Source: Bilabrum cf. latius
Lineage: Eukaryota
Assembly: GCA_965178125.1 (NCBI GenBank)
Contig: OZ237740.1
Coordinates: 930,001-994,000 of the forward strand
Direction: 5' to 3'
Length of the DNA stretch: 64,000 nucleotides
Under the pieces are notes generated by a model. It saw only the letters and a list, made by a program, of their open reading frames with translations, did not search any database and was not told the origin of the DNA. Position 1 is the first letter of the stretch. Each line of letters begins with the position of its first letter. The translations under genes were made by a program, and so were the position numbers. Of the stretch, positions 1-64,000 are shown one piece after another.

Positions 1-3000
1 AGTGACAAGCTCTTGGAGCACTTCTTGCTCCTTCTCTTGCTGTTTTTCCTGCTCACGTTCCTGGGTGACTTCCTGCTGACTCACTAGCTCTCCGTCAAAC
101 CCAACGATCCGAGCTGCTGCGTATTCGACAGCAGCGTCTCCTCCCAGCACATCGTCACCATCTGCAGTCCCTTCATCATCGGCGGCAGTTTTGCTCTCGG
201 CTGCACCAGATGAAGCATGCTGCTGCTCCTACAACTCTCGCTGCCTCTCCCTGGCAGCTCTTATTCTGCGCTGCAGGCTGCTATCTCGGGAACTTTGAGC
301 GTCCGCTACGGCCAGGAGAATAACGTCCCGAGCCGCCGTTCTCGCGTCCCTGAGCGCCTCAGACGCATATCCTCGCATGGTTGTATCATCCCCAACAATA
401 TCGCGCCACTCATGGAGCATTCTCTCTAGCTTCTGCGCGAATCCGATCGGAGGCTCGATAACGGCCGGCACATCGAACTCGAGGGGGTCCAAGAACGCCT
501 CCACGCACCGCGAGAGTAGTTTCTGCCGCTTGTCCACCCCAATGAGAACGTCAGATCGCTTCAGGTCGTAGCGTGTCAGCTTCTTCTAGGGCATACTATG
601 GGCAAGCTTCTTCCTCGCGAGTCTACTTCTGGATCCACCAGACCTGAAGCTGCTGGTGGAGCCCCCAGACCCAACGCCAGTCAAGTAGGTGTCATCTGGC
701 GACTGAGAACCGAATTTTTCTTGGAGCAACTCTTTCGTCCCAGTGTCTGCATGGTACTCGGTGAGAGCGCGCGAATCAGCGAACCTAGTGACAAGTGGCA
801 TCAGCCTAGCACCCTGGAACATCCTTTCGTACGACAACAGGAAGGGGGTAGGCGGCCGGAGCCCGGGCGTGTCGATCAGTGGGAAGAAGGCCTGCATGTG
901 GGTGTGCCAGCCCAGGAACCCACTGGCTATGTTGCCAAAAGATCGATCGCTCGAGCCGTCGGAACCAGCTGCACTAGCAACGGGCACTGCCGCAGCGCCC
1001 CCAGAAGCTGCACCTGCACCGCTGCTCGGTCCTGATTCATGCGACAGTATCTCCAAGATTGCCTAGGCCAGCATCGCCCTGGACGGTGGGTGGAGCACCG
1101 TTGCACCCGAAGCACCCTCCTCAGAGTCGCCGTAGCCAGAGCTTTGCGCCCCCTGGCGGAACGCGCGCAGCATCCTGTCTCGCAGCGCCGTCAGCTATTC
1201 GCTAGACTCAGCATCTCCACGAATAAGCGTTCGCAGTGTTCTATCCCTCACGCGATTACCCACTTCGCGTTGCATGGCGTCATTGTTGAATATAATGCCA
1301 TCGTCTCCGCTGAGCGTGAGTGGCTCGCCTGAACACAAACCGGGCGGTCCGCTCTCCCTTGCCTTCCGGCCGTCATGCGCGGCCAGGTACAGCTGGCGCT
1401 CGACCAAGAAGGGTGGCAGCGGCTCCGACCGCAGCGTCTTGAGCGCTTTCTGCCTCCAAATGTTGGTAAGCCGTAGCTAGCACAGGGACAGATGCTGCAT
1501 GTGCTCCGAGCGAATGGACTTGGTGACCAGCCAGGCCACCACATCGCGCGGCAGGAAGCCGGTGTCCGACACCTCTCGCACCCTAGACAGCACCTCTGGA
1601 ATTACAGCAACGCTGAGTTTTTGTCCTTGCCCCAGACCGCGCATCCGATAGCAGCCCTGTGCCATGTCACGGAGAGTCATGTCATTGGACAAAGTGACCA
1701 CGGCCCGGGCATCGAGGCCCTGCTTGATGTCTTGGCCAGTGGTGTGGGCGTGGTCAAATACCACAAATCGCGCGTGCGGCGCAAGGCCGCAGTCCTGGAG
1801 CGGAATGGTGCGACCGCTCGCTCGCATTACCGCCATCTGTCTACCAGCGTTGTCGATGAACACGCAGCCCTTGAACCGGGGACGCAGCTTGCTCAGAATG
1901 AAACGAGCTGCCTGTTCGTTCGACATTCCAGTGATCAGAGCCCCCGTGTCGATCACCGCATTGTACGGCGGATCTGCTTGCGCGATTGATGTGAGCAGGC
2001 TCTTGACAGACCAATCATCCAGGCTGCCTTCGAACACCCCGATGATACCGCTGTCTGTAAGCGTCCGGAGGATCTTTGCCTCGCTACCCGGCTCGTACTC
2101 ACACGTCATGCCACGGGGAAGCAGGTCATTCGGCGTACCAGAGAAGCCCAGTCGCCTCGCAAACAACTGCTCGCCAACGATATCAACCCCTGTTGCCATG
2201 ATCTTCACCTTTTGGTGATGCATCACTGCGGGGAACACATGTTTGCGCAAGAAATGGGATATAATTGCGGGAGAGTCGCACAGCACCTCATGGACAGCCA
2301 TCGTCTGCACCTGATTTCCCATGTCGATCAGCGGAAGCGGAAGCACGCCAGCGACGCGAGAGCGGTTCCCACCAGTGCTCCATGAGTCGTTTCCAGATCC
2401 AATTAGCACATCGAGGCTGCGCACGCGTTTCTTTCCACCCCTGCTGCGCTTGCTACTTGCTCCACCGGTCGAGCCGTCAGCACTTGAGCCTCTTTCGGTA
2501 ATGTCAAACTCCCCGCCTGAGCTCCCTCGTCGGCGGAGCGAGACGGTGCCCTCCTCACCGCCACCTAGCCCAAGCGACGGCATGCGAAGCAGCGTAGGGG
2601 CAGGCATCTGCGCAACATCATCATCTGTAACAGTGGCGGTGGAATCCTGCCTTGACATTGGCTGCAACGCCAAGCCCTCCCCATCCGCGTCGCCTACAAC
2701 CCCAGCCCCAGAATCCGCTGCAAGCTGCTTGGCCTGCGTCTCCTTGCGGAACGCCTCCCTAGCTGATTCTGCCCGGCGCGCCTGCTCCAACCACGACATG
2801 AATAGTCTGCTAGATGGCCGTTCATCGGGCCGGCCTTGCTCACGAGACATGGAGAGTCGCAAACTCTGCACCACGCTGTGGCAGTCTTCGTACCTCAGTC
2901 CCTCGTACCTGTACGCCAAGTAGCTAAGGCAAATCAGCACGTCCTGGTGTGAGAACTCTGAAGTGGGTGATGGCTGCTCCTTGCCGAGGAACGGTACGGC

Positions 3001-6000
3001 GAGCACCGCACGCGGAGTCAGGTGGCCCATCGGGTCTCGCTCCATGAAACCAGGGTCACCTTGTTGCAGCAGACCATAAGACACGCGGTCTACCTTACTG
3101 AGCGCATGCGGAATATACAGATTCAGCAGATCCCTGTTCAAGTTCAGCAACCGGATAGTCTTGCCTGAGCTGCGGGACATGAGCAGCTCGGATTCCTAGG
3201 AGCGGGATCCAGCCTCGCCTGACACGTACTTGAGAGCGGCTCGGATCACAAGGGGGTCAAGCTTGGAAGAAGTCACCTCGACGGCCTCGATTCGCTTCAG
3301 AGCATCATCTGCCGCGATTCCGTCCGCGTCCTTTTCGCTCGCATCTGCCGAAGTCGCTGCGGTTTTCCCCGGATCGCTTGCAGCGGTTGTGGAGATCAAC
3401 CAGTCCTCGCCGACGCACTCCTGCTCGAGCACCCACAGCAGTGACCACCTGGCTAGCTCCGGGAGCAGTTTCCGCTGGTACCACTACTTGTCTAGCAGGA
3501 CAACGTGTGGCACCGTCTGCACTGCGAGCTGTCTCACACCGTCTCGAAGGGTGTCGCGCATGCGCAGCAACAGCTCGGACGCATTGGAAGCAGTGCCTGT
3601 CGCACCCTAAAGCACAGGAAAATCCTCTGGCGAGTCGCCGTCGGCTGCGTCCCCAAGCACACCGGCAGGAAGCACGATGCGGGCAGCTGCAACGGTCTTC
3701 TCTGCAACATCACCGGAAGCACCAGACTTTGACTTGTCGTCGTCTTCGGCACTGGGCTTCCCTCCATCTGATCCGCTGCCAGACAGCTGCTCGCTGTACT
3801 GCGACGAAAGTGGTGGTACCTCAGGGGGATTCCCGCCCTCGGCAAGCGTCTCGGGCGAGCAACACGCCAAGAGCCCAGAGAGGATCCAAATTGGCATCAG
3901 CCATCGCTCTGGGCTAAGAAACAAGGGGTACTTCCTGTTCAGCGGAAAGTTCAGCTCGCTCTTCAGCGGTTGCACCACGAGATCCACTTCGTCCACGAGC
4001 ACGAGTCCGTTGTTATCCTTCGACCAAAGGCTCAAGATCTGACGGAGTGCCTCCGCACAGGCTTCAGTTGCCGTCAAACGCAAAGATTCCTCTTCGAGAT
4101 CATTTGCTAGATCCTCGCTCGTTTCTCGTATTTCAGATGGTGGCACAAACGCATGAGGTGGGGCCGAGCGCAAGTCCTGCATCATGTCCACGTACTGTAG
4201 CATGGCAGATTTGACAGCCTCAGGAGGGGCAATTACGATCGAGCCCCTGCGACGAGCCATGTCCAGTCGCTCCCATAGACGCCAGAGCATGTCGTGGTAC
4301 TTGCTGAGCTTCAAGCGACCCATCTGTGCGGCACTTGCTGAGACAACAACTGGGTAAACCTTGCCCTGCAGCTCTGTCCACACGTTTCTATCATCCCATA
4401 CCTAGGCGACCACAAAACCACGACTCGACAGAATGTCTTGAATCGGAGACTTTCCTGACTCTGCCACGCGTCGCTCCTCCCTCGTCCTGCGAGTGAGTGT
4501 GAACTCGGGCTCCACCACCAATGACTGCACCCCGGCGTCATGATCAGGGAGAGGACCTTGCTCCCCTTGCAGCTGAGGAATGACGAAGCGTTCGAACTCG
4601 AACGTGATCACCATTCTGTTAAAGAATGGCGCTGCAACCACTGATCTAAGCATGCGCCTTGACATGTCCAGCAGCGACGAGGGCACAACCGACGTCACCA
4701 AGGACTTCCCGTCACTCAAGCTTATGGCCAGCGCAGGCTGAATGACACTCGACTTCCCCAGGCCCATGATCGCCTAGATGATTCTAGATGGCGACTGCGA
4801 GCTCTGTGCCGATTCGAGGAAGGCATCGATCATCTCGACCTGCCTCCCGCGGAGCACGAAACCCGTCACAAGCTCCATAGCGAGGTACCGCGGATCAAAT
4901 GTCCATATGCAACGCCTAGAGTCCACCTGTCGCATGTACTGTCGTTTGCCAGAAATAAAAGAGGCAGCAGCGACCGATTTCGCTCTCGTGACCTTCACAT
5001 CTCCATCCAGGCTTGCACATGCAGACTGAAGCCAACCTTGCAGCGCACGATTTGATGCCTCGCTAGCAAGCACAGCTGCTTGCTGCGGTGCGTCCTGCAA
5101 GGCCCCGAGAACTACCGCGCAACCTTCTCGAGACTCAATCGCAGTTCCAATCCGAGCCTCTGCTGGCTTCTGAGGCAAGCCAGCAGTCTCTGCAGCTGAG
5201 CTGGAGCCAGCAGCTACCAGCAGCCGCTCCCAGTCCATAACTGGTGTCGTTGCGAGTAAACTGCCCACAGTATCACGCTGTCTTTTCCTCACAACGGAGT
5301 AGGCGTCTGTCATGGTGGCTTCACCTGCAGCTGCACCACTGCTGCTGGCTGGAAGTGGCTGGGAGGCCCCACCGTAGGCGAGGAATACCCGGACCCAGCT
5401 TCGCATCTTTCTGAGTCCTGATGCTGCATTGAACGGCAGGGAGTCCAGCTCTGGCTTCGAAAACTCGATCTTAACGCTGTCAAGATTGACCAACCTGTCT
5501 TCGGATGCCATTTGCGGTATCAATGCGCGCTGCACCTCCGATCTAGGGGGCCGTACCATCGCTGCCGGATCAATGTCACCCCAACCCTGCGCAGCAACCA
5601 CGCCCGAGGCAATGAGCTCGGGTAGCTCCGCTGTAATCCTGTTCCAAACGCTATCAATGATTATTCCTTCCAGCTGACGGCGCACTCCCCTTACCGCGTC
5701 TCTGCACTGCCTGGCTTGTTCGCCTCGCAAGGCGACTGCAGTGAGCACGGCAACAGCCTCTACCACAGTATCCACGGACTCGCTGGACAAGGACGGGTTC
5801 CATTGCCTGGAGACGATGCTTCGAGAGTTCGTCAAAAGCGTGGAAATAATCCTGCTGTATGTTGGTGGCGCCCGTTCCGACGAAGTGTGCTGCAACCGAA
5901 GCATGGCATTCCTTGTCACGGTGCCCTCATCTCGTGGGCCATCCGACCCATCCTGTGCGCCGGGACTAACGTTTTCTTGCTCGTTTTCGCTTGAATTTGC

Positions 6001-9000
6001 ATCTTGACCCGCCCCGCTGGACGTGCCAAATTGTGGTGTGCTGCACTGCACCAGCATTTCAACCATTTGCTCCGTGGTGAGGCTGCTGTCGGACTCTGCA
6101 ATGAGCTGCAAGCGAGCCTCAAGCCGGATTAGACCCTCGCGCGCTCGAGCAAGATCATCTGCTGCTTCTTGGAATGAAGAGCCTCCAGAGCTCGACTATT
6201 CGTCTGAGCCAAGCCCGGCGATCCGCTTGGAAATATCCTTAGCTTTATCAATGAGGGTCTAAGCGGCAACGCAGACCGAGTCGTCTGCACTGCGCAACAA
6301 CCTCTGCATGGCAGAAGCATTCGACTCTGCCGATCGCTCTGCATCTGCCTTAAATCGTTCCATCATGGCCTGGCCCACCGCCGACTTTAGCTCGGGCATC
6401 TTTGAAACGTCAAAGGGGACATTCCTGGAGAACTCGCCGCCGCGATGAGACGAGTTGCCAGGCGCAGGCACCTTTACAATCAAACTATCGGCTACGTGTG
6501 ATGGCCTGTCCTCCATCGAGTCTTCTCCTGCTATACAAGACAGAAGACCCTGTCCATGCAAACCAGTTGCGCCTCTCGTGTCAAGAAGTCTATCGCGGAT
6601 ATCACCGATCTTGGTTGCAAATTCGGACGAGTCGTCCGTCATTTCCACTGCAGAGTCTCCAGCTCGCAGCGCGATCTTCTGGCTGTCGCGTAGCGAGTCC
6701 ATCGCAAAGGGTCTCTGCATCGGCTCCTGGGCAAGCACCTCGTCCACGTTCATGGCAGCGAGAGGTTGCCGTGGCGCGAAGAAAGGCTACTCCGCAGGCT
6801 TCTCCTGCGTAATTTCTCCCGAGAAGAACATGTCGAGCGCGTGCAGTGCTAGGTTCCTGCATGCTCCAAAGAGGCGCAGGTCCCATTTGCTGATCTTTCG
6901 GCCTTGCACATCGGGCAGCTCAATGTCCTGGCCCAGGATAGTGAGTTCTTCCAGCCGATCCTGCAGGGGGGCCCGCAGCATGTCCTAAACCTTTGCTGCA
7001 GCGTGCAGGATACTGGGTGGGGGACGGGTCAGTACGAACGTGTTTATCACGGTACTCATCCCTGGAATGTCGGTAAGCGGTAATCCCAATCCGTCCCATC
7101 CTGAAAGTTTGAGACCACGGGAGGCGACAGACCGGTCACCAGCAGCATACCGCTCAGCTGCCCGCATCAGGGCAATCCCGATGCAGCCCATGGCGGAGTC
7201 TCTACCGCCACCATATTTGGCCAAGTGAGACACCTAAAACCGAAGCATGAACGCCCGCATCAGCGCTAGAGGCACCTCAAAGTCGTCTGCGGTAGGCTCT
7301 CGACCAATGGGCTCTCTGACTCCCATCCTCGAGTCGTCCATGTAGTCAGCATCCACGTCGTCTGCACTGGGTGCGGGCTCGCCTGGGGCTCCAATGCTCC
7401 CGGGCGCAGCCACACCCCGCGTATCTCGGCACTTGCGAAGCCATGACAGGTCAATCGCTCCGAAGAAAGCGGCCAACTCCTTGTCGCTGGAAGGATCCAC
7501 GATCGACTGGATTGCCCGACCGCATCCGGCATTATCAGTGTGCTTCGAGGGCACGTAGTCGCGCAGTTGCCCCACTAGATACGCGGTGATGACCAGCACG
7601 CTGCTGCCTCTGACAGTGTCAGGTAGGTCGGAAGGCTTAGTATCCCTATCTTGGCCGGTAATGCGATGGTACAAGCCGCTGTCCTTGTGCCTTTGCTTGA
7701 CAGCGTCCAGGTGGCGCTTGAAGTGCATGAAGGACTTCTGCTCCAAGTGCCGCCCACCATCGTTCTGCACCGCTTTCTCAAAGAAGAAGTAGCTGCCCGG
7801 ATGACCCGCTAGAACATCGGCAGGAAAGTGCTCGGCGCCCTGTAGGCACATCGCGTCATCAACCTCAAGGCACCTTGCAAGAGAATTACGACCCAACGCC
7901 TCCTCTAGAGAAGCCAAACTAGTAGCCTCAGGAACCATGCCGGGCATCTTGCAGCCGCGAGCAGCCTCGTATGAGCGAACTGCGTGCTCAGCGAGTCCTG
8001 CCCTAGGTCGCTCGAGAGCTGCATGGCTTACACTGCTGTGCGCCTTTGCGCTCCAGACCAAGGCTTTTCGCGCACCGGTTCTGCTAGCCGCTGCTGACTC
8101 GAGCTCGCCCGAAATCTCATGAAGGACGGGAGCCACCGGCAGAACAGCTCCAATGCTGACTATTCCTGCGCTAGACCAGCCATCAGACAAACCCGATGCA
8201 ATCCTCAGCTGCGGGTCGGCTCTGACCACGACAGACACGCCATCAAATAGCAGTGTGGTCTGTTCATCACCGTAGTTCATCGATCCGCGGCCCCGAATCC
8301 CAGTAGGTGCACTCCGCATGCCAAGCATGTAATTCGCAGTTGAAGGTGATCTCACTAGGGGTTGCGTAAGGCCCTCATCCAAGAACACGGCGGCAGTCCC
8401 ACACGATGACTGCTTTACCTGAAGGGCGACCCTCTTTGCCCCCGGGATGCGCACGTTCAGCACGCCCTCGGCGACCTGCAGGGGAGCTCCTGCTCCAAAC
8501 CCGATGACGGACTCCTGCGGGATCAACGTGAGCTCTTCAGGAGAGCGATGGCTAGTCCAAGCAATCTCGTCCTTGGTTCGCTGGTCTGCAAGCTGCCAAC
8601 GGCGCTGGCGAAGCGCTTGGAGAAGCACGGGCCTACCCTTTGCAGCAATGGGAAACATCCCACCCTTGTGCATGTCCATCTCTTCATCGATCGTGAGCCT
8701 GGCATGCTGAGCGACTTCATCGAAACACTCATAGTATAGCTCCAGCTTGAACTCCGTCATGCTGCTTGCAAGGTGTCTGGCTGACACGGCATAGTCTGTG
8801 GCTCCTATTCGGTTTCCCGCAACGGCAGGTGGAACGGAGGTGTGCTGGTCTACGTTGCCACCAGCGTTCGTAATACTGGTGACGAGGTTCTTCGATCGAA
8901 TGGCCTCGAATCGCTACAGCCGCAGCATGGCAGCAACAACGTCAGGATGCGTGTTTAGCTTCAGGTTAGCATCAGAAGTTACTTCTGCAATCGCGTTGGC

Positions 9001-12000
9001 GTCATCCATCGTTTGCACGTCGTCGACCTCGCACTGTTGAATAAACTCGTGAGCAGCCCTCGTGTCTCCCGCTAGCAAAGCGTTCTGAACCATGAATGCA
9101 GCTGCTGCAACGTTGGGACTCAGCACGTACTGCAAAGAGTGGTGCATTTCGGTGAGTTGCACCTTGCGACGTGACGTCTGGACATCACCAATCACCGCCT
9201 CGCGAGCTGTTTGCAACGGCATGCGTTCGATCGAATGCACGATTGAGCTGCAAACAGGTGAGAGGATGCTTATCTTGCCCGTTTCGTTGCCTAACACGAT
9301 AGAGAATGGCAGATGCCTCAGCACACCGCCAATCTGAGGCGGCCGCTTGTTGCTGAGATACTGGCCCGAAAGCTCCCTGCAGGACACTCGCCATGGCGTC
9401 TTCTCTTGGCAGTTGACTGTGCCTTTCCCGGCTTTTCCAAGCTGCAAACTAGTGATTGTAGACGGCTGGACATCAAAGTTAAGCTCGAGGCGAGGAAGTT
9501 CGATGTGAGTGACAGCGACGGTATCGCCATACGTCCGGCTGGCGGCTCCTTTGGACCAGTACAGCACGTGCCCAGGGCGTTCGATTCGACTGAAGCAACG
9601 GGCTAGTCTCCCCATGGCGCTGTCATCAGGACTGTGCTGCGTGGCAATCAGCATCTCACAATCTACAGCAAGGCCGTAGGCGGGAGGAGCAGCGCGCAGT
9701 CTCGTGGCGGCCCAGAATTTCACAAAATCAGCGAACTAAAACCGCCTAACTTGCGCCTCTACGTCAAAACCAAAGTACTCGCGCTGCTTTGAGTCACTCG
9801 CCGGTCTCGTATCTGCCAATGCGGAGGCTGCCCCGCCATCTACGCCGGATTCTACGGGTAAAAGAGCCTAGCCATTCGATTCTACGAGATGCTTGGAACA
9901 GGCGGGCGGTGAGGCAAGTGGCACAGGGGTCGGGGTGAGCTCAAGCACCACAACGGTATGTCTGACATGCTGCGGGGCCCTCGGTGCAGGATAACCAACC
10001 AAGGTTACTCTCTGCGGCGGCGCCTAGAAGCACTGCTCTGCTTGATCAAGAAGGCCAATACCCTTGGACCTGGCTTGGGCTGCAAGGGTGGCAGCCTGAG
10101 CCTGGCTCCTGTCTCCAGCACTAGAGCCAGCAACATCAACGGGCTGCTGCAGTCTTGTCTGCTACTTTTCAATCTCCGGAAGGGAAGCGAGAACTGGATT
10201 TTGGACGTCTTCCACTGCATCTCTGACGCGGAAGAAAGTGTACTACGTCGCTAAAGCCGATGGAATGGCACCGATCAGGTGGCTCGGTTCGATGAGCTCT
10301 TCTGCACCAACGAGGCGCTCGATCGATGCCACGGTCGCTCGCTTGCTGGCTCTTTCAATGGTTGCACGCGGAAGCAGTAGATCTGCCGATTGAGATGACT
10401 TACGAAGCTTGCCGTCTGCAGCTGGTGGGGCGAGCTAGTCGGGGATCGAGGCGCTCTTCGCAGCGGATCCAGCTCCAGCTGATGGAGACCTATCCTTTGA
10501 GTCATCGATCTCATCTTCATCTTCCCCTATTTCGATTGCTTTGGAAGCCGTTGCTGAGCTTAGCAGCGCAGCTTGTCCTGCAAGGCCAACAATCTCGCGC
10601 CGTACCGTGGCACCGCCAAGGTTCGTACCGTTCGAGGTCATCATGCCGCTTCTGTGCCACTGGGTGTACGGCGCATTCATTTCCATGTGATACCCTATGC
10701 CCGATGCCCGATGCCTGCACTCTTCTGAATACAAGACTCGACGGAGTGTCAGTCTGTCGTCAGGATCAAGGGAAGACACGCCACGCGTGCAATCGCTCTC
10801 AAAGCACAAGGTGCGCTTGAAGTGTCTGGCCACCTCCATGAGCCTAAACACCCTCACGCGTCGTTGTGGATTGCTAGAAATCTCAATGTCGAACCAGAAT
10901 CCGTCTACAAGGGAAGACACGCCACGCGGCAGGCCGGTCTTCCCGCAACTCGGATTGCCAAAGAGGATCACGCGTCCGTCCAGCTCTTCTCTGTGGCTTG
11001 CCACTGACGAAACAGAGCCGCCTGTCAATGTTTTCTGCGTGGATTTGGCGATGGCTTCGGGCAACCCATCGCTCATCCAAGCCCGAATGAACCGGTTGGG
11101 CTCAATGTTGAACATGGCAGCCACTCGTTCGTTGGGGCACGGTACCTCGTTGTAGGCATCGCGAGCATTCAGCCTGAGGTCGAATAGGCGGCCGAGCCAC
11201 CCACAGAGTTTCGGGTCATACTCACTCGTAAAGCGCATATTTCTGTAGTAGGCCACCCCACCACGCACCACTGGCATGCCATATGCAGTCACTGGCACAG
11301 TCGCACAATTATCATCGCCAGCCGGCGCGTAGCCTTGCGGGCGCACATGCTCCTGCACAATCGAGGCCTGCACACCCTAGGGCTGGGTCCCAATGTTGCC
11401 GCGCGATCGCCGAAGAGTTGCATCCGTCCGGCTCACCTCTCGTCTTAAAGGGCTTGGAAGCAGCAGCGGGGCTCGCATGGACGCGGGATGCGGCGCAGAT
11501 CCGGACGGGTTTGGCTGAGTCGAGCCATGGGCCAGCGCTGGATTCTTCCACAGGTCCACCGTGTACAGGTGGTTCTTAAACCGGAACGTGTACTGCCGCA
11601 TGTTCTCAGTCTCCTTGACGAGGGCACCAAGCATGGTATGCATTGCTGATTGCAGCCCTGGCACCCGCGACTTGAGCAAGGCAATTGGGGCTGAGTTCTC
11701 GACCTCTGTCGGAACCTTGCTGACGCTGGATCCCCGCATCCTCAGCTCTCCTGTCTGCAGGTTCACCTGCGTGCTGCCCGTACCGTCCACAAAGGTACCC
11801 CCCACCTGAGATCGGCCCTGCTGTGCGTTCTCAAGAGCTTTCCTGGCCTGCTCGCGGATTGCTTCACCTTCGTCATCCAGCAGACTCAGCGCCATGTCCT
11901 CGTCGTTGTTGCACCGGGACAAGGCGATCTCACTCGCTGCCACTAGCTCTGCTGCCATCCGGCTACGGTAGGACTCGTCCGACTCGGCCAGGTCTTCAGC

Positions 12001-52900: not shown

Positions 52901-55417
52901 CTGTAGGAACACATCAAGACGGCCTACGGCATTTCAAATTCGTTCAATCAAGACGCAGACTGTGTCGATGGAGAGAACGGCCAGGTTCGGCTGGCGAAGA
53001 GCGCGAGCACGGGGTCTGCAAGCGCGGCATCATCGGTGAGCATGCGGGACGATGGAGACGAGGATGCGGATGTAGTCGTCACCTCAAGTGCGGCCGGCTC
53101 GAGCACGGAAGGGAAGCACGCAGGAGCGCCTCGGGGGCTGCATGCCTGGCTGGACGGGTCCACTGTGCAGAACTCGAGTGGAGAGCGAGCGGACGGGACT
53201 TCACGTCCAGTGAATGGAGATTTGAAGGCGGTCACCGCAAAGCTCCAGAAGGACCTTTGTCACTTGGCAGAATTGACTGCATCTACTGTGCTGGCCGATT
53301 TGCAACGGGCAGTCGAGAACTCGTAGTCTTTTGACGAGAGGACAAGGAAGTGGATTCAGATCGAGCAATCGGTGATTGTGCAGCGCTGGAACCTGGTGAA
53401 ACCAGGTTCGGACGGCCGCCCCGAAGTTACCAGTGTGCGAGAGTACGAAAAGGCCAACGCAAGAATATTGGCCGCTGCAAATGCGCAGCTTCATGCGCTC
53501 CTGAGAGGAACAGATGATGTACCATACCCTTTGTCAAAGACGAGGCCGCGGCTGCTCAGCAGCCTGTCGCTGGAATGCCTTCACTAGATGCGTTCGCACA
53601 TTGAGGCGTCCCGGCTGCAGGCAGGTGTCCTCCTTTCCATACGGAACTAGGCCGCTGCGACGTACAAGGAGCTGCGGGGCATATGCACGGGGATGGACTA
53701 CGTCACGGACATGAGCAGCATCCTTGACCCCGTCTCGCACAACGACGCCGATTCGGGCCGCTGGAGTGACGCAGATGAGATGCCAAACTCAAGGATGATC
53801 GGCCTCGTGCGAGATGCACTGCGAGGGATTGCTGGAAGCGAACGGTTTGTGCAGCCCAGTGCATCTTAGGCCGAAGACCCCTCCAAACGAGCGGGTGCCC
53901 CACCGGACACGTGGCATCGCAGGGCAGGTATTGATCGTGGGCTGCACGAAATTGCAGACCTAGAGTCGCAGTCAACGAGAACGTTCAACCTGAAGCTCGA
54001 GCAGGACAAGAAGTTTGCGCTGCTCCAGCAAACGATCAAGCGGGCCGACGGCGCGGGGCTGGACCCTGGCAAGGCCGATGAGCTTAACCTGCCGCAGTGC
54101 GCCGTCACTATGTGCGTGCCTATCCATCCAGTAATGGTGCCTTGCTGCGGCAGTACGTACGAGCGCGAAGTTCTCGAGAAGTGGATTCGACAGAAGGGGT
54201 CTTGCTGCCTATGCCGTAGCCGGCTCACGAAGGACCAGATCATCTCGCTGGAGACCAGCACAGTCGCCGAAGAGTCTGGTATATTCCACGTGTCACACCG
54301 CAACCCATAGCAGCAGGTTCAGACGCTCAAGGCAACCAAGAACGCGCTGCTAGCTCAGGGCAAACTGGACTAGGGCTCGGCTGCAATGCATGCTGAGGAG
54401 GACGACGACATGAACCGACACTCGTCTGATGAAGATGACGACGAAGATGAGGACGAGGATGAGGACGAGGACGAGGAACCAATCGTTGCACGAAGAAGGG
54501 GTGGCGCCGGTGCTAGGCGAGCTGGTCGAGGCAGAAGTCGCCGCTATGACGCCGATACTGCTGCAGCCACCGCGGACACTGAGGCTCTGCTGCTCGATCC
54601 TCGCCCAGGGAAAATGCCAGCGGCTCCGTGGGAGAGGCGGACGCAGGTGCCCGCCCACCTTCTACCGGTGGCAAACTACGCACTGCCTGCCGACTCTGCC
54701 ACGAGCAACTCCGAAAAGGTGGGCGATTTCACGGCAAAGATCGCCGTGTTGATCCGAAGGACAAAGGCACTGCCAGCAGACGAGCAGGCCGTCGTCTTCG
54801 TCCAAGACTCGGGCATCGCGCAGCTAATCCTGAAGGCATTCTCTGGTTCTGGAGTGAAGGCGATCGGCATTTTGGGCTCGGAGCAGCAGCAGCGTGAGTC
54901 CATGCAGAAATTCGGCGATGGCGTTGCCAGGGTTCTCGTGCTCGACTACCAGCGGGGCGCCAAGGGACTCACGCTGAACCAGGCCAACAACGTGTTCCTA
55001 GTGGACCCGGCGCTGCCACACACAGAGGCACAAGCAGTATCCAGGGTGTGGCGCTATGGTCAGCAGAAACAGGTAAACGTGTTCCGAATTGTGCTTGAGG
55101 ACTCCATGGAGGAGCGGATGTTGCTTGCCAAAGATGCATCCAAGGACCGTCCCGCCAGCGAGCCAATGGACGTTGTCGAAAACGATCAGCAGGACGACGC
55201 GATTTTGCGTGATGCATTGCGCGTGGAGCCGGAGACAGCATGGCAAGAAGCCCCAGCGGTGCACCTCGGCGAGCTAGAGATCAAGTCTATCGGCGACCTT
55301 GCCTACATCGTCGGGGCCAAGCAAGGGACAGCTGGAAACAGCGGCACGGCTGCTTCGGTGGATCCGGGAGATGAGGCTAGCAGCGCTGCGCAGGCCATGG
55401 TCGATGATTTTGAATGA
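46964..55417 (+). CDS. SNF2-family ATPase, SHPRH/Rad5-like, with U-box/RING-like domain, ~2,800 aa
   Basis: TLRPD*NRSLAFL (Q motif), GGVLASEMGLGKT, TLIVVDSVLLDQWVKEI, ADIVLATYNTL, RRMVIDEAQ, RWCVSATP, GAKGLTLNQANNV, QAVSRVWRYGQ. Fourteen same-frame ORFs are joined by TAG; ends in TGA. The start and any 5' intron are uncertain. Confidence 0.85.
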
Positions 55418-55485: not shown

Positions 55486-58400
55486 TCAATCCTCGTCAGG
55501 TGCTGCGGTATGTACGTCAGTAAATGAGCTCATCTGCTCCACCCCCACGTCAGTGGATTGGGGAGAATTGGACCCGACACTACTTGTGTACCACTCCATC
55601 GCTTGAGAATTCTGCCTACTTCTATTAGACGCTGCGCTGAGTACACGAACCCGCGCCACACCGTGGCTGGTTGCGCCTGGTCCAGCTGAAAATTGACCAG
55701 GCATCGGCAAGTCTGCTGGTTCATCAACATGATCTACCAGATGCACAGCCTCGTGTCTGACACTGGTACTCGTGCCCATCACATGACTGTCTCCGCCCTA
55801 TCCTATCTCTGAGCTGTAGGTTTGCATCGGGCCCACCTAAGCAGTCACGACAGCAACCGAGCCGTCTCGCAACGCACTTCCTGTTGCACCAACTCGGCTG
55901 GCGCCACCTCGAATTCGAAAACCAGCCTCTGGATCGAGTTCATGCTATGCTGCAGCGTGAAGAACAGGTGTATGGTCCTTGCGCCTTTCACTCGGTAACC
56001 CTGCCCAAGCTGCGGCGTCGACAGCGCATGGCGCAAGTTCAACCGCCTGCCTTGAGCGAGACTACAGCCTCATGGGCGAGAAAATGGGAAGCATGCGTTG
56101 ATCTTCCTGAAGCTTAGCCGCGTCTGTGAGCCGTGCAATCCGTGCTAGAGCTCCTTCTGGCTAGTGCGGGACTTGCGCATCTCCGTCCACTAGGTTTGTC
56201 TGCAAGGATACGGTCATAGTCCCGGCCCCAGCAGCACTTGCTGCGCGTTCGGCGGACACAATGTGCGTGGTTCCACCTGCGAGAAGTTGCTCGCATTCAC
56301 TTATCGTCGAAGATGCTAGCTTTTTGCTACTAGTCGCAGACTTTCGGGCTTGTGTTGCTGCCGGTTCTCCCACCATGCCTGCCTCCAGTAGTTCCCCAGT
56401 TGCCTCTTCAAGCGCGGCAGCTGCTAGTTGAGCTTGCTGCGCTGCTTCGATGCCCATCTCAAGCGACTCTGGTGTTCCTTCTCGCGAAACCATCGTGGCA
56501 TATCCGTTGTATGCACTGGTCTGCAGGGTCAGCGCGGCGAGTTGCAGCTGCGGAGTGGTGGCATCAAGAGGAGTCCGGTCGTACCCAGCCTCGGCCGGCA
56601 GCTACCCGCGTGCAATGGCAGCTGATATTGCCCCTGCCCGGCGCATGGCTTCCTGAGGGCTGACTCGCAGCTGAGCGAGGATCGCACGCGCTGCCTCAAC
56701 TGCACCTCTGCCGCGACGTGCTGCGCTTGCACCTAACTGCTCCAGCCATCGTGCGAAAATGAGCTACACCTGCAACACAGGACAGGGAATGTGCAGCGCG
56801 CTGAATGTGGTCTCCTAGCTCTGCGCAATGGCATCCTCATCATCACTATCAGATGGAGCTGGGACGAAGTCTTGCGTTGGCAGAGTGCCATCCAAGACTG
56901 CTTGAGCGAGCACAACTCCAACTGCCGCGATCCTGCCGAGCCGAAGAGCCGCGTCGGCCAGTGCCACAACGAACTAGGAGTCAATGCGTGCTCCATTTAG
57001 TCTGGATGGGCACCCGTGTAGCACATGTACATCATCCAGGGCCATGGCTGCTCTAGCAGCTAGGGCGGCCTGCACGCCCTCCACTACCTAGATGCATGCT
57101 GTAGCTCGCTGCACGTGACCTTCAAGAGGCAGCAGTGGAAGCTGCTTGCCCTCCACGACGCACGCACCCTGCAATACCCCCAGCACGCTTCCCATCCACG
57201 CATCCCCGAATCTAGTCCCGGCCAAGCAAGGAAACGTCCGGATCGAGGCCTCTGGGTCCACGCTCTCGCGAATTGCCATTTCGTTTCTCAGTGCAACCCA
57301 CGCGCACCTAAAGCCCTAGCCCGCATTGCCGTGCTCCAGCGCTTGCGAAGCCAGAGCCAGCATGCAGCGGTCATACTGCGCAATAACATCGCTGGGAACT
57401 CGCACGCCGAGGCAGATGCTTGGTTTTGATTTCTTGCTGGCATCGGTCGATTCACCGCGCCAGGCACACACGGTTGGTAGGTCTGGCAGGCCCATGTAGT
57501 TCTTCCTGCCCTCTGCCTTGACCTGTCTCGCTGTCTAGTTGTGGTCGATTACGCACACGGGGCTGCAGTGGAAAGCAACCCATTCGTGAGCCTGGGATGG
57601 CATGTCATGCTCATCTTCGCGGCGAACTGCCAGCTGCGCAGAGAGTCCAGGCAGCCCGCTGAGAACAACAGTCGCCGGTTGACCCAAGAGGCTGCGAAGC
57701 GTCCGAGTGGCTTTCCACCTGCGTCTAGCATCCTCCTGTGCGTCGCCGATGGACTAACGGCGTGCTGTGGAGTCGTACAGCGCCTCGAGCGCGGACAGGC
57801 GGCGGATGGGCTTGGGAGGTGCCGGTGCGGTGCCGCTTATTGGGGTACCTGCTGAAGTTGGTGATGCAGCTATGTTGGGAAGAGCCTGCTTGGATGTGTG
57901 GAGCACTGAGACAGCAGTGCTGGATGGAATTGCCGCTAGACCACGAGTCTCTCGCTTGTCCAGGGCATCAAAACCTTCTGCTGCTTCGGCACGCTGCCTG
58001 GCCTGCGATTGAATGGACCGCAGGGGGGTGGTACCGTTGCGGGATTCACACCGCTTCCAGTTGTCCACGACAGCATCTAGAGATTCCTGGGCAACTTTTG
58101 CCCCTAGATTGAGAGTGTCTAGCAGTACGTCGGCCCATTCAGAGTCAGCAGTCTCCCGCGCATGCCCTGCACATTGGTCCATGCTACCGCTCTCAGCTGT
58201 GTTCTCTATTCGTGCAAGCGCAGACCGGATGGCCGCGCTTGATGCCTTCTTCAGAAGTGCACCCTTTAGGGTCTTCTCATCGTCGTTTCGCTTGTAGCCC
58301 GACTTTGGCGCTAGTGCCGCCAGTGTTTGCGCTGGCAGCTGCAGACGCTCGCCCGCAAATACAGCTGCGGCTTTGCATACCTCCTGCAGGGCAGCGACAA

Positions 58401-59871
58401 GGTTGCCATCGCACACACGCGACAGAGCAGCCGCAATGCACAAGCTTACTACTCTAGACTGCACGCTACCCGCAGCTCGTTGAGCAACCGACCGCAGCAC
58501 GCTAGCCACCGATGTGCTCGTGTGCAAGGGCGCTAGGTGCGCACCAAGTCGAGCAATGGCACTGCTTCTACCGCTTCTTCTTGCCGCAGTCGACTTTCCG
58601 CCACCCGCGCTTCCCTTTAGGGACATGACTGAGCCTTGGCGGCTCTGCAGGAGACCTGAGGTGATAGTCTGTCTGGTCTCGCGAGGGCCGCCTCCTCTAG
58701 TGGCCGCCACGGTACCAAAGCCGCCGTCCACCGCACGTCGATCAACTCCAACACGAGGGGCCGCCGTTTCAACCGCGCCATCGTGTTCGGCTAAATCAGC
58801 TGTTTTCACTGCTCCATCGGCCTCCTCCATTCCAGTAGCGGCGCCAGTCGCGGCCAGCGCCGTTCTGAACCCCTCCATGGCCGCCTGTCTCCTCGACGCC
58901 CTTGCCTCGTCGACCGCCCTGTGGGTAGGCGCGAGCTCCGCCAGCCTCTCCATCTGCTCCTCTTCCCGTCGACGGGCACCCAGTGCCCCGTATAGCCTAG
59001 CGCGCATGAGGTACAGCTCTGGTTCCTTCGGCCGCAGCACGATGGCCGCGCTGACATCGTCCAGGGCGAGATCCAGGCGGACCATGTGGGTGCGACAGGC
59101 TGCACGAAGGAAGTACAGGCGCCAGTCCAGGGGCTCAAACTCAAGGGCAGCGCACAGCGTGTGTTCTGCCGTCTGCCACTCTCCAGACGAGCACAGCGCG
59201 CGCGCCAAGGCGAGCTGCATGCGCGCCACAGATCGCGGGCGAAGCGCTGCTTGCTCCTTGGCAAGCGCCTCGAGCTCCACGCGGACCTCGTCTTCCGTGA
59301 TGACTGGCAGTGACAGCTCGGGCTTCGGTGATCCAGCGCCGTGCGGTGGCGGATCTAGCATTAGATCTGGCTTACTCTCATACACGCCGGCAACCGGAGG
59401 TTCCCACCGTACCGACTACAAATCACAGCCGTCGCGAAGCAAGCGGTTGAGTTGCGCTCGCTTTGTCCGACCCTCTCTCGATGCTGGGGATGGATGGCTC
59501 AGCGGCGTGGATGCTCGGCTATCCTAGCGTTGTCTTGAGCTACCTGGTCGCCTGTGAGTTTTGGCCGCAGCCATGAGCCGCTTCTGCAGCTCGGCCGTCG
59601 ACTGTCGATGTGATTCCGCAACAGCGGACGCACCACGGACTCGTAAGGCCTACGCCAGATCCTCTGTTGCAGATCGTAGATCCAATAAACCCAGCCACGC
59701 ATGGCTACGCACTAAATGAGCCCCAGCAAGCTCTGCAGGCAACCGGTTGGGGTCATTGATTGCCATGGTTGAACACCGCAAAGCCGAGTCATATCGCCGC
59801 GCCGCAAGCTATCTGCGAGCCAGCGCGAGACACACATCGCTTGCAATAATATCTCTACGAACACCTTCCAT
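55486..59871 (-). CDS. Tetratricopeptide-repeat protein, ~1,460 aa (an extra 5' exon is possible)
   Basis: TPRs: LARALCSSGEWQTAEHTLCAALEFEPLDWRLYFLRAAC...ALDDVSAAIVLRPKEPELYLMRARLY. Hand translation stays open except for TAG from 59871 to TGA at 55486-55488. A TTAACAG acceptor-like site lies near 59908. Confidence 0.7.
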
Positions 59872-60070
59872 TGAGATCAAGACAGGTGCTCGCCTTTCGA
59901 TGGCATCCTGTTAATGAAACGGGTCGCAGCCAGATGGTCGCACTTTACTTTTGTGGCGTGCGAAATTATGAAAAGTCTGGTATTCGGCTGGCTCTCGTCT
60001 GGTCTCACGATTGTTTTGGGCCTTGCCCAGCCGTCCTACGGGATAAATCGTATTTTACCGACCCTGTACC

Positions 60071-63000
60071 ATGAAAATGTGTTTATATATTCTATTCGTA
60101 GTTGGAATGCTGCTTGATCGTGAGTCGGTAGCTGTCGTGTCCTTCGTGCGCCACGCTGCTGCATTCAAGCCGACCGCCTGTCTCGTAGTTGCAGACCTCT
60201 TCTCACTGAAACCAAACCAAACTGTTTTCGGTGTGTACATTTTCATTTGCAGACGCGGCGGCAGTGGAGTCAGTGACACGAGCGCCAGCGACGTGCCACG
60301 AGCTCTGCGAACTGTCGGGGCATGGAGCTTGCACGAGTTTGCCAAGTGGGAAAGGAAAGTATTGCAAATGTGACGACGGTTATAGAGGTGTTGCATGCCA
60401 GGCAAAGTAGTGCCCCGGTGTCGTTGCAGCCAAGCTGTCAGCAAAGCTGAATGCGTTGGCCGAGGATGCTGCCACAGTGTCCGAATCCCAAGATAAGGAT
60501 GAGATCGCCAGTCTATCGAAAGCACTTAAGGCTGCGGGTGCCATATCCCCGAGCATGCTTGCTCAGCTTCATTCTGATTCGGCCAGATCCGTGGCACCGG
60601 CGAGTGACTTAGAGCAGGCTTTGGGGCTTGGGCCAGGCGGCGCAGACGCCCTCAAGGCAGCCTCAAAGCTGGCAGCCGAGCGCGATTTGGTCGAGGCAGC
60701 AGCGGAGAGCGGCGATAATGGCGTGGGTGATGCAGCTGAAGAGGAGAAAGAGGAGGCAGCGAAGCTGGCTCGATTGGAGGCAACGGGCGGGCGAGACCCC
60801 GTGGCGCTGTGTGGAGGGCACGGCGTCTGCCAGGCAAGCACGGGCGAGTGCAGGTGCTCGGGTGGGTGGCACGGGCCTGACTGCAAGACCCGCGAGGGAG
60901 AGGAAGTTAAGACCCCGGAGGGAGATGAAGTTAAGACCCCTAAGGGAGAGGAGGTTAAGCAAGCCGAGAAAAAGGACTGCGAGGAGGACAAAGACTGCGG
61001 GGGCAGCGAGGCGGGCAAGTGCGGAGACGACGGGAAGTGCTTGTGCTCAGAGGGGCGGGCTGGTAAGCATTGTGAGAAGAAACTGTGCTCCCCGAACGAC
61101 TGCAGTGGGCATGGCAAGTGCAACCACGGGTCTGGCAGCTGCCACTGCCAGGACGGCTGGCAGGGCGCTGGATGCAACGAGAAGGCGCCGGTGGTGCACG
61201 GCACTGTGGTGGGCAAGGTGGTGAACCAAACGGATGGGGATTCTACTCCTCGCTTCATGAGTGTTCCTGCGCACGGCGGGTGGCGGGAGGCGCTTGGTCC
61301 CAGCAGTGAGGGCGAGGATGAGGGTGAGGGCGCCGAGGTGGAGGAGCAGGAGACCGGCATGCGCTTCCGTTCCAGCTCTCTGTCAACTGAGGGCAAGCGG
61401 GCAGTAAAGTCCACAGAGAGGTTTCTTGTGGTATGCGAGCCGGGATGGACGGGCTCGGATTGCTCTGTTCGCGTCAAGGAAGCTGCCTGCAATGGAGGAA
61501 AGGGGTGCTCGGGGCACGGGCAGTGCACGCAGTACGGGTGCATTTGCGAGGGCGAGTGGTTCGGGCCTCGCTGCGACGTCACGGCCAACGGGGCGCAGTG
61601 CCCGGTGGGCCGCGGTTTCAAGCCCAGTTACGGCTCGGATGACCTCAGCCGTGCTGCCGCCCGTGACAGGCTCTCTCTCGATGCTGCCGTGGAGGCCGGC
61701 ATCGTGCGCGGTGCAGAGTCCACGAGGGAGGACGAGGAAGCGGGAGGCGAGGAAAACGAGTCCAAGCCACAGGCCATGGGCACCGTCTTTGGCACGGGGG
61801 AGGGGGGCTCTGAAGGAGACGAGGCCGTTGCCAGTGCGGGTGCGGCCGAGGAGGGGGAGGAGGCGGAGGACGAGGAGCAGGAGGAACTCGACAATGCGAT
61901 GACCGAGGCAGAGAAATAGGAGGACGAGGAGGACGCCAAGTCACAGCCAGTGATCAATGGCGGTGCCGCCCTGAGGGAAAAGGCAGGGCTGCCGAGATTC
62001 GCGGCTCGTAGGGGTGACGCAATGGGGCCCGGCGTGCTGCAGCAGAGCAACTGGGGCGGAGACTTCGACCAGGACTCCACGGACGACGACGGGCCCGCCA
62101 CCGATGAGCTGGCGGCCGCGCTTGCTGCTGCCCAGGGCAGCATGGGGGGCGGGCCTGTGCCTGTGCAGCGCAGTACCGGCGTCTTGGGTGATGCTCCTGC
62201 GCCGGGCCAGAGGGAGTTTGCGTCGATGCGTGCAGTGTCCACGGTTGCAGCTCAGCTCATGCAGTCGGGTGCCAGGGCAGCGGCGGGTGTATCTGACGCC
62301 AGGCAGCGCCACTTTGAAGCTGCATCCATCGGTGCCCTTGAGCGGGTTGGCGTGGTGGAGGCAGGGGATGCGGAGAGCAAGGAGGATACTGCCTCACGTC
62401 AGGCGAAGAAGGAGCTCTTGTCCAAAGCCGCCGCGTTCATCGCAGCAGCCGACGAGCCCACAGAGCTGCAGGAGAGGCACGAGTACCGGCACGGGCTGGG
62501 GAGCGGGAGACAGTGCTCTGGGCTTGGCCTTTGCGCTGAGGATGGGAGCTGTCGATGCTAGCCAGGGTATGGTGGGGACAGCTGCCAGCTTCGCCAGGTC
62601 AAGCACGGCGTTTGCAGCGCGGCGCCCGAGCCGCTGGCGAGCAATATGTTTGAGCTTGCGCTGGACAAGGTCGCGCAGAAGAAGAAGGCCAACGCGTAGG
62701 AATCGAAGGCCGGGAACGGCACCGCGGCTGCTCTGCAGGCAAGGGGGTCGGTGGCGCAGCGCAAGGACGAGGACGATGATGAGCCTCTCAGGCTAGTGTG
62801 TCGTTGCGGTCTTGTGCCAGCACAGAAAGCTGCGTTCCCAGGGCAGCGATACACAGGGCCATCGTGTGACAAGCTCTCCTGTCCCAAGGATTGCAGCGGG
62901 CGCGGCTCTTGCGGAGAGCACGGGCAGTGCCTGTGCCCGCCTGGATGGACGGGTGACGCTTGTGACAAGCCGTCGTGCGTGGACATGTGCGGCGGCCGCG

Positions 63001-64000
63001 GCAAGTGCATTGTAAAGCGTGTGCCCCTCGACGAAGTGCCGGAGGGCGCCGTGACGGCCCGCCCTCTCCGGGAGCTCCTGACGTCGGCTGACCGGGCCGC
63101 CGCTGGCGATGCAGCAGCGGCGATAGGCAGGCGATCGTCCGCCCTCGGCGAGACGCTCGGCAGCACAGCGGCAGCCAAGCAAGAAGATGCGCCCAAGGTG
63201 GGTGCAATCCTCGCCAACCACCAGGAATAGCCAACGGAAGGGAGGCCCAAGCTCGCTGCGATCGTCAGCGGTAGTGCGCAGTCGAGAGCAGAGCATAAGA
63301 AGCTGCAGCAGAGCAAACCGAACGCGGGCGCGGTTTTGGCGGGAGCGGGCGGGACCAAGGGATCGCCGAAGGCAGGCGCGGTTCTAGCCGGCACTTCCAA
63401 GAAACGGAGCAACAAGGCGGGTGCCGAGGCCTCGAAGACGGAGACCGCCTTGCTGCAGCGCAGCAGCTCGGTCTCAAGGCAGCGCAGCAAGGTGCAGGCG
63501 AGAAGCTACGGGAGGCTGAGGGCGTCCCATTCGGGTCGGCACGGAGCACAGCCTGCTGCAGGCGCCGGTCGCGACCCGGCCGAGATCGTATCCGATGCGA
63601 CCTCTGGAAGCAGGCAGGTCTCGCATGAGCAGCACGCCCGCAAGGCCTCTGCTGGAGTGTCGGCAACGAAGCAGCCTTTCAAGAAGGAGGACACTGTGGT
63701 TGCAGCATTCTGCGAGTGCGAGGCGGGGTACGCTGGCGCAGGCTGCGGCACGAAGGTGTGTCCAGTGGCCAACTGCAGCGGCCACGGGAAGTGCGACGAG
63801 GCGACCGGCACGTGCAAGTGCACCGGCCGGTGGTACGGCGCCGCGTGCGATAAGCACCGGGATAGGCAGTGCCCGGGTGCGTGCGGGGCCAAGCTTCACA
63901 GAGGCATGTGCCACGACGGCACGTGCTACTGCGCCAAGGGCTTCACCGGCCCATCATGCAGCAGCGTTCTGTGCCCGTCATCTTGTAGCGGGAACGGCGT
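60071..64000 (+). CDS. Secreted tenascin-like EGF-repeat protein, 3'-partial; intron 60120-60252
   Basis: Signal MKMCLYILFVVGMLL and a GTGAGT...TTTGCAG intron. Many CxGHGxC...CxCxxGWxGxxC repeats. One frame is interrupted only by TAG up to the window edge. Confidence 0.85.
60895..60962 (+). repeat. Coding 24-bp tandem repeat, about three copies (EGEEVKTP)
   Basis: EGEEVKTPEGDEVKTPKGEEVKQ. Confidence 0.7.

What the first reader, a model, noticed from the sequence alone, without database searches (positions are those of the whole stretch)
1..64000. Non-standard nuclear genetic code: UAG reassigned from stop to a sense codon (Gln)
Seen: all ten genes, on both strands, are split into same-frame fragments by TAG alone. 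The longest such frame runs about 17.5 kb with no TAA, TGA or frameshift, and catalytic motifs on both sides of the TAGs are intact (USP Cys/His boxes, TK P-loop, SNF2 motifs). Complete genes end in TGA (7) or TAA (1), never at a convincing TAG. Known: nuclear reassignment of UAG alone is very rare (UAG=Gln in the fornicate Iotanema spirale and some phyllopharyngean ciliates, UAG=Leu in a rhizarian). Inference: this GC-rich, intron-poor genome does not look like a ciliate, so this may be an independent, undescribed reassignment. Standard-code annotation would break every gene into pieces.
Basis: partly seen in the sequence, partly recalled or inferred. Interest (0 to 1): 0.97.

Follow-up and report, generated by a model that had tools for sequence, protein, structure and literature searches.

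The report
UAG read as glutamine, eukaryote nucleus
This stretch comes from a GC-rich, gene-dense single-celled eukaryote that reads the stop codon UAG as glutamine while still stopping at UGA and UAA, a rare change of the genetic code seen here in a lineage that matches none of the described cases.

Summary
In a conservative set of 18,582 codons from ten genes on both strands there are 103 in-frame TAG, no internal TAA or TGA, and eight gene ends (7 TGA, 1 TAA).

It is not an assembly artefact or RNA editing. Four runs from four studies carry identical letters. Spliced, transcript-sized contigs from two of them keep every TAG.

TAG means glutamine:
- One TAG sits in a column just before a Walker A loop that is Q in 73 of 77 ungapped homologues.
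- A 92%-identical relative has Q at that site.
- A 63%-identical environmental orthologue (L001) has 17 in-frame TAG of its own. At the 25 sites where only one of the two genes has TAG, the other has CAG or CAA 14 times. The log-likelihood is -50 for Gln against -76 for the next best residue.

UAA is not reassigned: 0 in-frame TAA were seen where about 30 would be expected.

The tRNA-Gln(CUA) and eRF1 could not be examined because no genome is held. The organism could not be placed.

The code type is already known from Iotanema and some ciliates. Stop usage, GC content and TAA behaviour exclude those lineages and Amoeboaphelidium. Ten literature searches found no description of this lineage.

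The parts
1..17658 (-). Giant gene (at least 5,886 codons; its 3' end runs off the window start) for a DUF3638/DUF3645 P-loop protein. It has 30 in-frame TAG and no TAA or TGA.
4774..4776 (-). TAG codon at residue 4295 of the giant protein, just before the Walker A loop (..SRII[TAG]AIMGLGKSSV..). This is the most informative single site.
   Evidence: Q in 73 of 77 ungapped homologues among the 102 that aligned there. Q in the 92%-identical fragment P0054. TAG also in L001.
1477..1479 (-). TAG codon at residue 5394 of the giant protein. L001 has TAG at the same site.
   Evidence: The column is variable in distant homologues: L 19, I 7, V 6, Q 5 of 64.
4402..4404 (-). TAG codon at residue 4419. 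The close relative's predicted fragment P0054 ends exactly before it.
18310..29884 (-). Main exon of a USP9X/USP34-like deubiquitinase gene. It has 11 in-frame TAG and a TGA stop at 18310-18312. Upstream exons are 30039-30311, 30402-30543 and from 30745, joined by GT..AG introns.
31471..31978 (-). LYR-motif (Complex1_LYR) gene in two exons (31978..31658 and 31560..31471) with a 97-nt GT..AG intron, 2 TAG and a TGA stop.
32109..33170 (+). Nop16-like gene with 4 in-frame TAG and a TGA stop.
33295..34494 (-). Thymidine kinase (TK1-type, with insertions), 3 in-frame TAG and a TGA stop.
34885..39677 (+). Main exon of a gene with TIG and legume-lectin domains. It has 5 in-frame TAG and a TAA stop. 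A 92-nt GT..AG intron lies at 34793-34884.
39790..42207 (+). Pectate-lyase-like (Pect-lyase_RHGA_epim) gene with 5 in-frame TAG and a TGA stop.
46964..55417 (+). SNF2-family ATPase with a cysteine-rich stretch that looks RING-like by eye (no Pfam hit) and Helicase_C. It has 21 in-frame TAG and a TGA stop.
55486..59871 (-). Gene of unknown family with 17 in-frame TAG and a TGA stop.
60210..63998 (+). Teneurin-type EGF-repeat protein gene, open at both ends in the window, with 5 in-frame TAG.

Best explanation
The window is nuclear DNA of a GC-rich, gene-dense, intron-poor eukaryote whose translation system decodes UAG as glutamine. UGA (mainly) and UAA remain the terminators. Shown: TAG is in frame in all ten genes. 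It stays in spliced RNA-like contigs. It exchanges with CAG/CAA in relatives. The trait is shared by a clade that includes a relative 63% identical in protein. Inferred, not shown: a dedicated tRNA-Gln with anticodon CUA, one base away from tRNA-Gln(CUG), reads UAG but not UAA. Also inferred: the release factor eRF1 has lost efficient recognition of UAG while keeping UAA and UGA. Reading must be efficient, because one frame needs 30 UAG decoded in a row.
For: 1) Counts: 103 in-frame TAG, 0 internal TAA/TGA in 18,582 codons, 8 of 8 gene ends at TGA or TAA, ln P about -447.
2) Real DNA: runs X1, X5, X6 and X8, from four studies, show no other letters and no indels over window 18001-38000.
3) TAG is in the RNA: X5 record 8 (12,121 nt) and X6 record 14 (12,122 nt) cover 18280-29884 with 0 differences and are spliced at three GT..AG introns that the X1 and X8 contigs retain. 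Transcript-sized contigs also cover the Nop16, TK, LYR and lectin genes. They end 20-115 nt past the TGA stops.
4) Meaning: residue 4295 lies in a column with Q in 73 of 77 ungapped homologues, and P0054 (92% identical) has Q there.
5) Orthologue L001 (63% identical over 2,160 aa, with a GT..AG intron of its own) has 17 in-frame TAG and no TAA/TGA before that intron. At the 25 sites where only one gene has TAG, the other has Gln 14 times; the rest are E 2, A 2 and V, N, M, I, S, R, T once each. Two sites are TAG in both. The 56% Gln matches Gln's own conservation in the same alignment (53%). lnL is -50.2 for Gln, -76.3 for Glu and -82.1 for Lys.
6) The gene is under purifying selection: pN 0.24 against pS 0.79.
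7) UAA is not sense: 0 in-frame TAA against about 30 expected from the CAA:CAG ratio.
8) TAGs lie in Q-rich runs such as MQQR#LQ#LQQ.
Against: - All evidence for the amino acid comes from one gene family, the giant DUF3638 protein. The TAGs of the USP gene fall in unconserved columns against its two homologues.
- Eleven of the 25 reciprocal sites are not Gln.
- The column at residue 5394 favours L in distant homologues (19 of 64).
- No tRNA gene is present in the window or in L001. No genome is held, so tRNA-Gln(CUA) and eRF1 are unseen.
- The library types of X5 and X6 are not on record, and the tool guessed 'probably DNA' for X6. Their RNA nature rests on splicing and contig sizes only.
- Contigs drop rare variants, so partial editing cannot be excluded.
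- Eight gene ends are too few to exclude occasional termination at UAG. One gene has a TAG four codons before its TGA.
Confidence: 0.92

Rival explanations
1. UAG is ambiguous: it is Gln inside genes but also a terminator near transcript ends, as described for UAA in Blastocrithidia nonstop (abstract) and, from recall, for stop codons in Condylostoma.
For: Only 8 gene ends could be examined. The pectate-lyase-like gene has a TAG four codons before its TGA. 3' UTRs look very short, a feature that, from recall, goes with position-dependent termination.
Against: 0 of 8 gene ends is a TAG. RNA-like contigs run 20-115 nt past the TGA stops.
Confidence: 0.06
2. UAG is a sense codon for another amino acid (Glu, Lys or Leu).
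For: Leu is the commonest residue at one TAG column (19 of 64). UAG=Leu and UAG=Glu exist elsewhere (passages).
Against: lnL is -50.2 for Gln against -76.3 for Glu and -82.1 for Lys; Leu was not among the eight best residues printed. Q is found in 73 of 77 at the conserved column. The 92% relative has Q there.
Confidence: 0.01
3. The TAGs are not translated: they are assembly errors, decayed pseudogenes, or codons edited to CAG in the mRNA.
For: None was found. Contigs cannot show low-level editing.
Against: Four runs from four studies give identical letters. Spliced contigs keep TAG. Only one of the three stop codons occurs in frame. pN is far below pS against L001, which has in-frame TAGs of its own at mostly other sites.
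Confidence: 0.01

Closest known systems
Iotanema spirale (Fornicata): UAG=Gln, with UAA and UGA as stops (Panek et al. 2017, PMC5304391; passages read)
   Same: Same code table. UAG is a minority Gln codon in both (about 8% there, 11.8% here). UAG is never seen as a terminator. The proposed mechanism is the same: tRNA-Gln(CUA) and an altered eRF1.
   Different: In I. spirale UAA is the main stop (104 of 119 genes, UGA 15). Here the count is TGA 7 and TAA 1, with GC 0.60. It is not the same organism. Common descent could not be tested.
Phyllopharyngean ciliates and Protocruzia tuzeti with UAG=Gln (McGowan et al. 2024, PMC11687900; passages read)
   Same: UAG alone is reassigned to Gln. Suppressor tRNAs with anticodon CUA were found there for the UAG=Leu relatives.
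   Different: Those genomes have GC 27.4-53.6% and use UGA least among their stops. The window has GC 0.60, uses TGA as its main stop, and carries ten genes on one 64-kb stretch with 90-200-nt GT..AG introns.
Amoeboaphelidium protococcarum (aphelid): TAG and TAA appear to encode Gln (passages in PMC5304391 and PMC6299283)
   Same: Stop-to-Gln change in a non-ciliate.
   Different: Here there are 0 in-frame TAA where about 30 would be expected.
Uncultured rhizarian exLh (UAG=Leu) and Scotinosphaera (UAG=Ser) (passages)
   Same: UAG is uncoupled from UAA in a non-ciliate nucleus.
   Different: UAG encodes a different amino acid in those two organisms.

Membership tests
Nuclear code with UAG=Gln and UAA/UGA=stop (Iotanema type, former NCBI table 15) | In-frame UAG in conserved, expressed genes | tested here: met
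   103 TAG in ten genes. Pfam domains lie on both sides of them. Spliced contigs keep them.
Nuclear code with UAG=Gln and UAA/UGA=stop (Iotanema type, former NCBI table 15) | UAG aligns with Gln in homologues | tested here: met
   73 of 77 Q at one conserved column. 14 of 25 reciprocal sites are Gln, and lnL favours Gln by 26 units. All of this comes from one gene family.
Nuclear code with UAG=Gln and UAA/UGA=stop (Iotanema type, former NCBI table 15) | UAA and UGA never in frame, and used as terminators | tested here: met
   0 internal in 18,582 codons; 7 TGA and 1 TAA at gene ends. L001 has 0 in its frame before its intron.
Nuclear code with UAG=Gln and UAA/UGA=stop (Iotanema type, former NCBI table 15) | UAG not used as a terminator | tested here: inconclusive
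   0 of 8 gene ends. The sample is too small for a genome-wide statement.
Nuclear code with UAG=Gln and UAA/UGA=stop (Iotanema type, former NCBI table 15) | Cognate tRNA-Gln with anticodon CUA | not testable with these tools
   No tRNA gene in the window or L001. No genome is held.
Nuclear code with UAG=Gln and UAA/UGA=stop (Iotanema type, former NCBI table 15) | eRF1 changed in its stop-codon recognition motifs | not testable with these tools
   eRF1 is not in the window and no genome is held.
Iotanema spirale itself | UAA is the predominant terminator (104 of 119) | tested here: not met
   TGA 7, TAA 1 against the passage.
Phyllopharyngean ciliates with UAG=Gln | GC 27-54% and UGA the least used stop | tested here: not met
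   GC 0.55-0.65 in all sixteen 4-kb windows. TGA is the main stop. Passages.
Amoeboaphelidium-type code (UAR=Gln) | UAA also read as Gln | tested here: not met
   0 in-frame TAA against about 30 expected; one gene ends at TAA.

The most novel reading that the evidence does not exclude
This is an independent origin of UAG=Gln in a eukaryotic lineage with no close named relative. The best named homologues of the giant protein are at most 47% identical and come from Rhizaria, an apusomonad, euglenozoans, a heterolobosean (placement from recall) and Cafeteria. The reassignment would be old enough to be shared by members that differ at 37% of residues in a conserved protein. It arose in a GC-rich genome where UGA is the main stop, so AT pressure or codon capture cannot explain the loss of UAG as a stop.
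Probability: 0.45. Interest if true: 0.85.

Novelty: new member of a known kind. Interest (0 to 1): 0.72.

Why it matters
Changes in which UAG parts company with UAA are among the rarest known nuclear code variants. The passages read list a fornicate, a rhizarian, a green alga and a few ciliates.

A further case would add an independent test of how eRF1 and a CUA-anticodon tRNA evolve together. This one is in a GC-rich genome with UGA as the main stop, has public DNA and RNA-like data, and has at least two relatives.

The practical consequence is immediate. Standard-code annotation cuts every gene here into pieces: the 5,886-codon frame becomes fragments of at most 953 aa. Fragment proteins of the relatives already sit in public protein collections (P0054 and P0112).

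Tried and rejected
- **Whole genome:** none is held, so there was no tRNA-Gln(CUA), eRF1, 18S or genome-wide inference.
- **Earlier findings of this scan:** nothing by place, by words or by sequence.
- **Rfam:** no family in the window.
- **USP gene against its two homologues** (Cafeteria P0008 and unnamed P0009): the TAG columns are unconserved and say nothing about the residue.
- **PDB alignments:** for SNF2 no TAG lies in the aligned parts. For TK one TAG aligns to I in two bacterial TKs, which is uninformative. The LYR exon had no hit.
- **SNF2 homologue search:** one weak hit.
- **Taxonomic placement failed:**
  - The Cafeteria top hit for USP may reflect word and composition bias.
  - Named homologues of the giant protein are scattered over supergroups.
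  - A FastTree of 81 rows (83 proteins of at least 2,300 aa were taken; those without a near-full span were dropped) joins the window with L001 (support 100), then with unnamed P0019 (94), inside a mixed 26-row clade.
- **Genome-contig scan:** no relative found.
- **ESM Atlas:** not used.
- **Sequencing runs:** no RNA holder is listed on record.
- **Literature:** ten searches found no description of UAG=Gln in a GC-rich eukaryote that is neither ciliate nor fornicate. Subscription journals and supplementary files were not searchable.
- **+4 base after TAG** (G 37, C 33, A 17, T 15) against the background: C is somewhat raised and there is no strong context signal.
Full report
**What is in the sequence.** Read with the standard code, the window has no open frame longer than 953 aa. 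Read with TAG as a sense codon, it resolves into seven long frames on both strands:

| Frame | Length (aa) | In-frame TAG |
|---|---|---|
| 1..17658(-) | 5,886 | 30 |
| 18310..30012(-) | 3,900 | 13 |
| 34797..39677(+) | 1,626 | 6 |
| 39760..42207(+) | 815 | 5 |
| 46748..55417(+) | 2,889 | 21 |
| 55486..59910(-) | 1,474 | 17 |
| 60210..63998(+) | 1,263 | 5 |

There are also three small genes. Pfam identifies ordinary eukaryotic proteins:
- a DUF3638/DUF3645 P-loop giant
- a USP9X/USP34-like deubiquitinase (UCH at 2420-2824)
- an LYR-motif protein
- Nop16
- thymidine kinase
- a protein with TIG and legume-lectin domains
- a pectate-lyase-like protein
- an SNF2 ATPase with Helicase_C
- a teneurin-type EGF protein
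- one gene of no known family

I trimmed the parts that spliced contigs show to be intron, and the frame extensions upstream of the first ATG. This dropped 4 of the 105 TAG counted and added 2 from the LYR gene. The coding set is then 18,582 codons with 103 TAG, no internal TAA or TGA, and eight gene ends (7 TGA, 1 TAA). The other two frames of the same DNA carry TAA+TGA at 0.0238 per codon, so ln P of the observed absence is about -447. GC is 0.55-0.65 throughout.

**Not an artefact, not editing.** Eight runs from four studies hold at least 96% of the sampled words of window 20000-29000. I laid four of them, one per study, on 18001-38000. None showed a different letter or an indel.
- X1 covers all 20 kb in one contig and may be the source of the window.
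- X8 covers 20377-33739 in one unspliced contig.
- X5 and X6 behave like RNA. Their contigs are transcript-sized. Their depth falls between genes. They skip five GT..AG introns that X1 covers without a break (X8 spans the four that lie inside its 13-kb contig): three in the 5' part of the USP gene, one in the LYR gene and one in the lectin gene.
- The 12.1-kb USP contigs of X5 and X6 match 18280-29884 with no difference, so all 11 TAG of that exon are in the spliced product.
- The contigs end 20-115 nt after the TGA stops of the USP, Nop16 and TK genes. This supports those stops as real.

Caveats: the library types are not on record, the tool guessed 'probably DNA' for X6, and contigs cannot exclude low-level editing.

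**Which amino acid.** A HMMER search of residues 4200-5399 of the giant protein against 1.84 billion representatives gave 5,737 hits, and I examined the best 150. The TAG at residue 4295 sits directly before the Walker A loop. Of the 102 homologues that aligned there, 25 had a gap, 73 had Q, and one each had G, P, V and E.

P0054 is a 225-aa fragment, 92% identical, from another assembly. It has Q at this site and ends exactly before the window's next TAG (residue 4419). That is what a standard-code gene caller would produce if the relative also had TAG there.

The other four TAG columns in this stretch are variable or gapped. The column at 5394 has L 19, I 7, V 6 and Q 5 of 64.

The strongest test came from L001, a 6.8-kb metagenome contig found with the same query.
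- Its orthologue is 63% identical over 2,160 residues.
- It carries a GT..AG intron that the window lacks.
- It has 17 in-frame TAG and no TAA or TGA before that intron.
- At two sites both genes have TAG.
- At the 25 sites where only one gene has TAG, the other has CAG or CAA 14 times. The rest are E 2, A 2 and V, N, M, I, S, R, T once each.
- Gln makes up 3.7% of this alignment and is conserved at 53% of its own sites, so 56% is what a Gln codon should show.
- With substitution frequencies taken from the same alignment, lnL is -50.2 for Gln, -76.3 for Glu and -82.1 for Lys.
- The gene pair is under purifying selection: pN 0.24, pS 0.79.

TAGs also tend to sit in Q-rich runs. All of this evidence comes from one gene family. 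The USP gene's TAGs fall in unconserved columns.

**UAA and UGA.** If UAA were also Gln at the CAA:CAG ratio (175:594), about 30 in-frame TAA would be expected. There are none. TAG supplies 11.8% of Gln codons.

**Mechanism.** What is shown is the decoding outcome. The machinery is inferred from established knowledge, as laid out in the passages read. An anticodon CUA pairs with UAG but not with UAA. A tRNA-Gln(CUA), one base from tRNA-Gln(CUG), would therefore explain why UAG alone changed. eRF1 must no longer compete at UAG, since a frame with 30 UAG needs near-complete reading. Neither molecule could be examined.

**Who is it.** This is unresolved.
- The USP protein's best hit is from Cafeteria (34% identity over 31% of the query, 904 bits). 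That search ranks candidates by shared words and may favour alanine-rich proteins.
- Named homologues of the giant protein come from chlorarachniophytes, Paulinella, Thecamonas (47%), Entosiphon, Flectonema and Cafeteria.
- In a FastTree of 81 rows the window groups with L001 (support 100), then with an unnamed protein (94), inside a mixed clade.

So there is a clade of at least three members: the window, the relative at 92% and the relative at 63%. It has no close named relative in the collections searched.

**Comparison with known cases.** The code table is the one described for Iotanema spirale, Protocruzia tuzeti and some phyllopharyngean ciliates (passages).
- The window is not I. spirale: UAA is the stop in 104 of 119 genes there, against TGA 7 and TAA 1 here.
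- It is not a phyllopharyngean: those have GC 27-54% and use UGA least.
- It does not have the Amoeboaphelidium code, in which TAA is also Gln.

Ten full-text searches found no description of this lineage. Subscription journals and supplements were out of reach. The public runs date from 2025, so their authors may already know of it.

**Verdict.** The observation and the reading 'UAG=Gln, UAG alone' are confirmed with high confidence. It is a new member of a known kind of code variant. Whether it is an independent origin depends on a phylogenetic placement that these tools could not give.

Noticed in passing
window 44154-46355: A tandem array of an 88-bp unit (25.1 copies, 95% matches), C-rich on the + strand. 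It lies in the only gene-free spacer (42.2-46.7 kb) and explains the GC skew of -0.27 there. A 10-bp repeat (CTGGCAGAAA, 6.9 copies) lies at 46772-46844.
   Followed up: partly
window 55415-55488 and 33168-33297: Convergent genes end very close together. The TGA stops of the SNF2 gene and the unknown gene are about 66 nt apart. The RNA-like contigs of Nop16 (ending at 33191) and TK (ending at 33180) overlap by about 11 nt. 3' UTRs appear to be only 20-115 nt long.
   Followed up: partly
window 29885-30744: The USP gene has three GT..AG introns (154, 90 and 201 nt) packed into its 5' end, followed by an 11.6-kb exon without introns. The start codon was not determined.
   Followed up: no
L001 about 6315-6442: The orthologue of the giant gene in the environmental relative has a GT..AG intron of about 127 nt at a place where the window gene has none.
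   Followed up: partly
window 33295-34494: The thymidine kinase matches bacterial and Leishmania TK structures in the PDB at E<=0.001. By the molecule names listed, no animal TK1 chain appears, and organisms are not given except by my recall. It carries long insertions between the P-loop and the DEAQ-like stretch.
   Followed up: no
protein cluster of P0098: A cluster of Cafeteria proteins at 90% identity also holds a protein filed under a Symbiodinium sp. record. This is a probable case of a heterotrophic flagellate's sequence sitting in an algal assembly.
   Followed up: no
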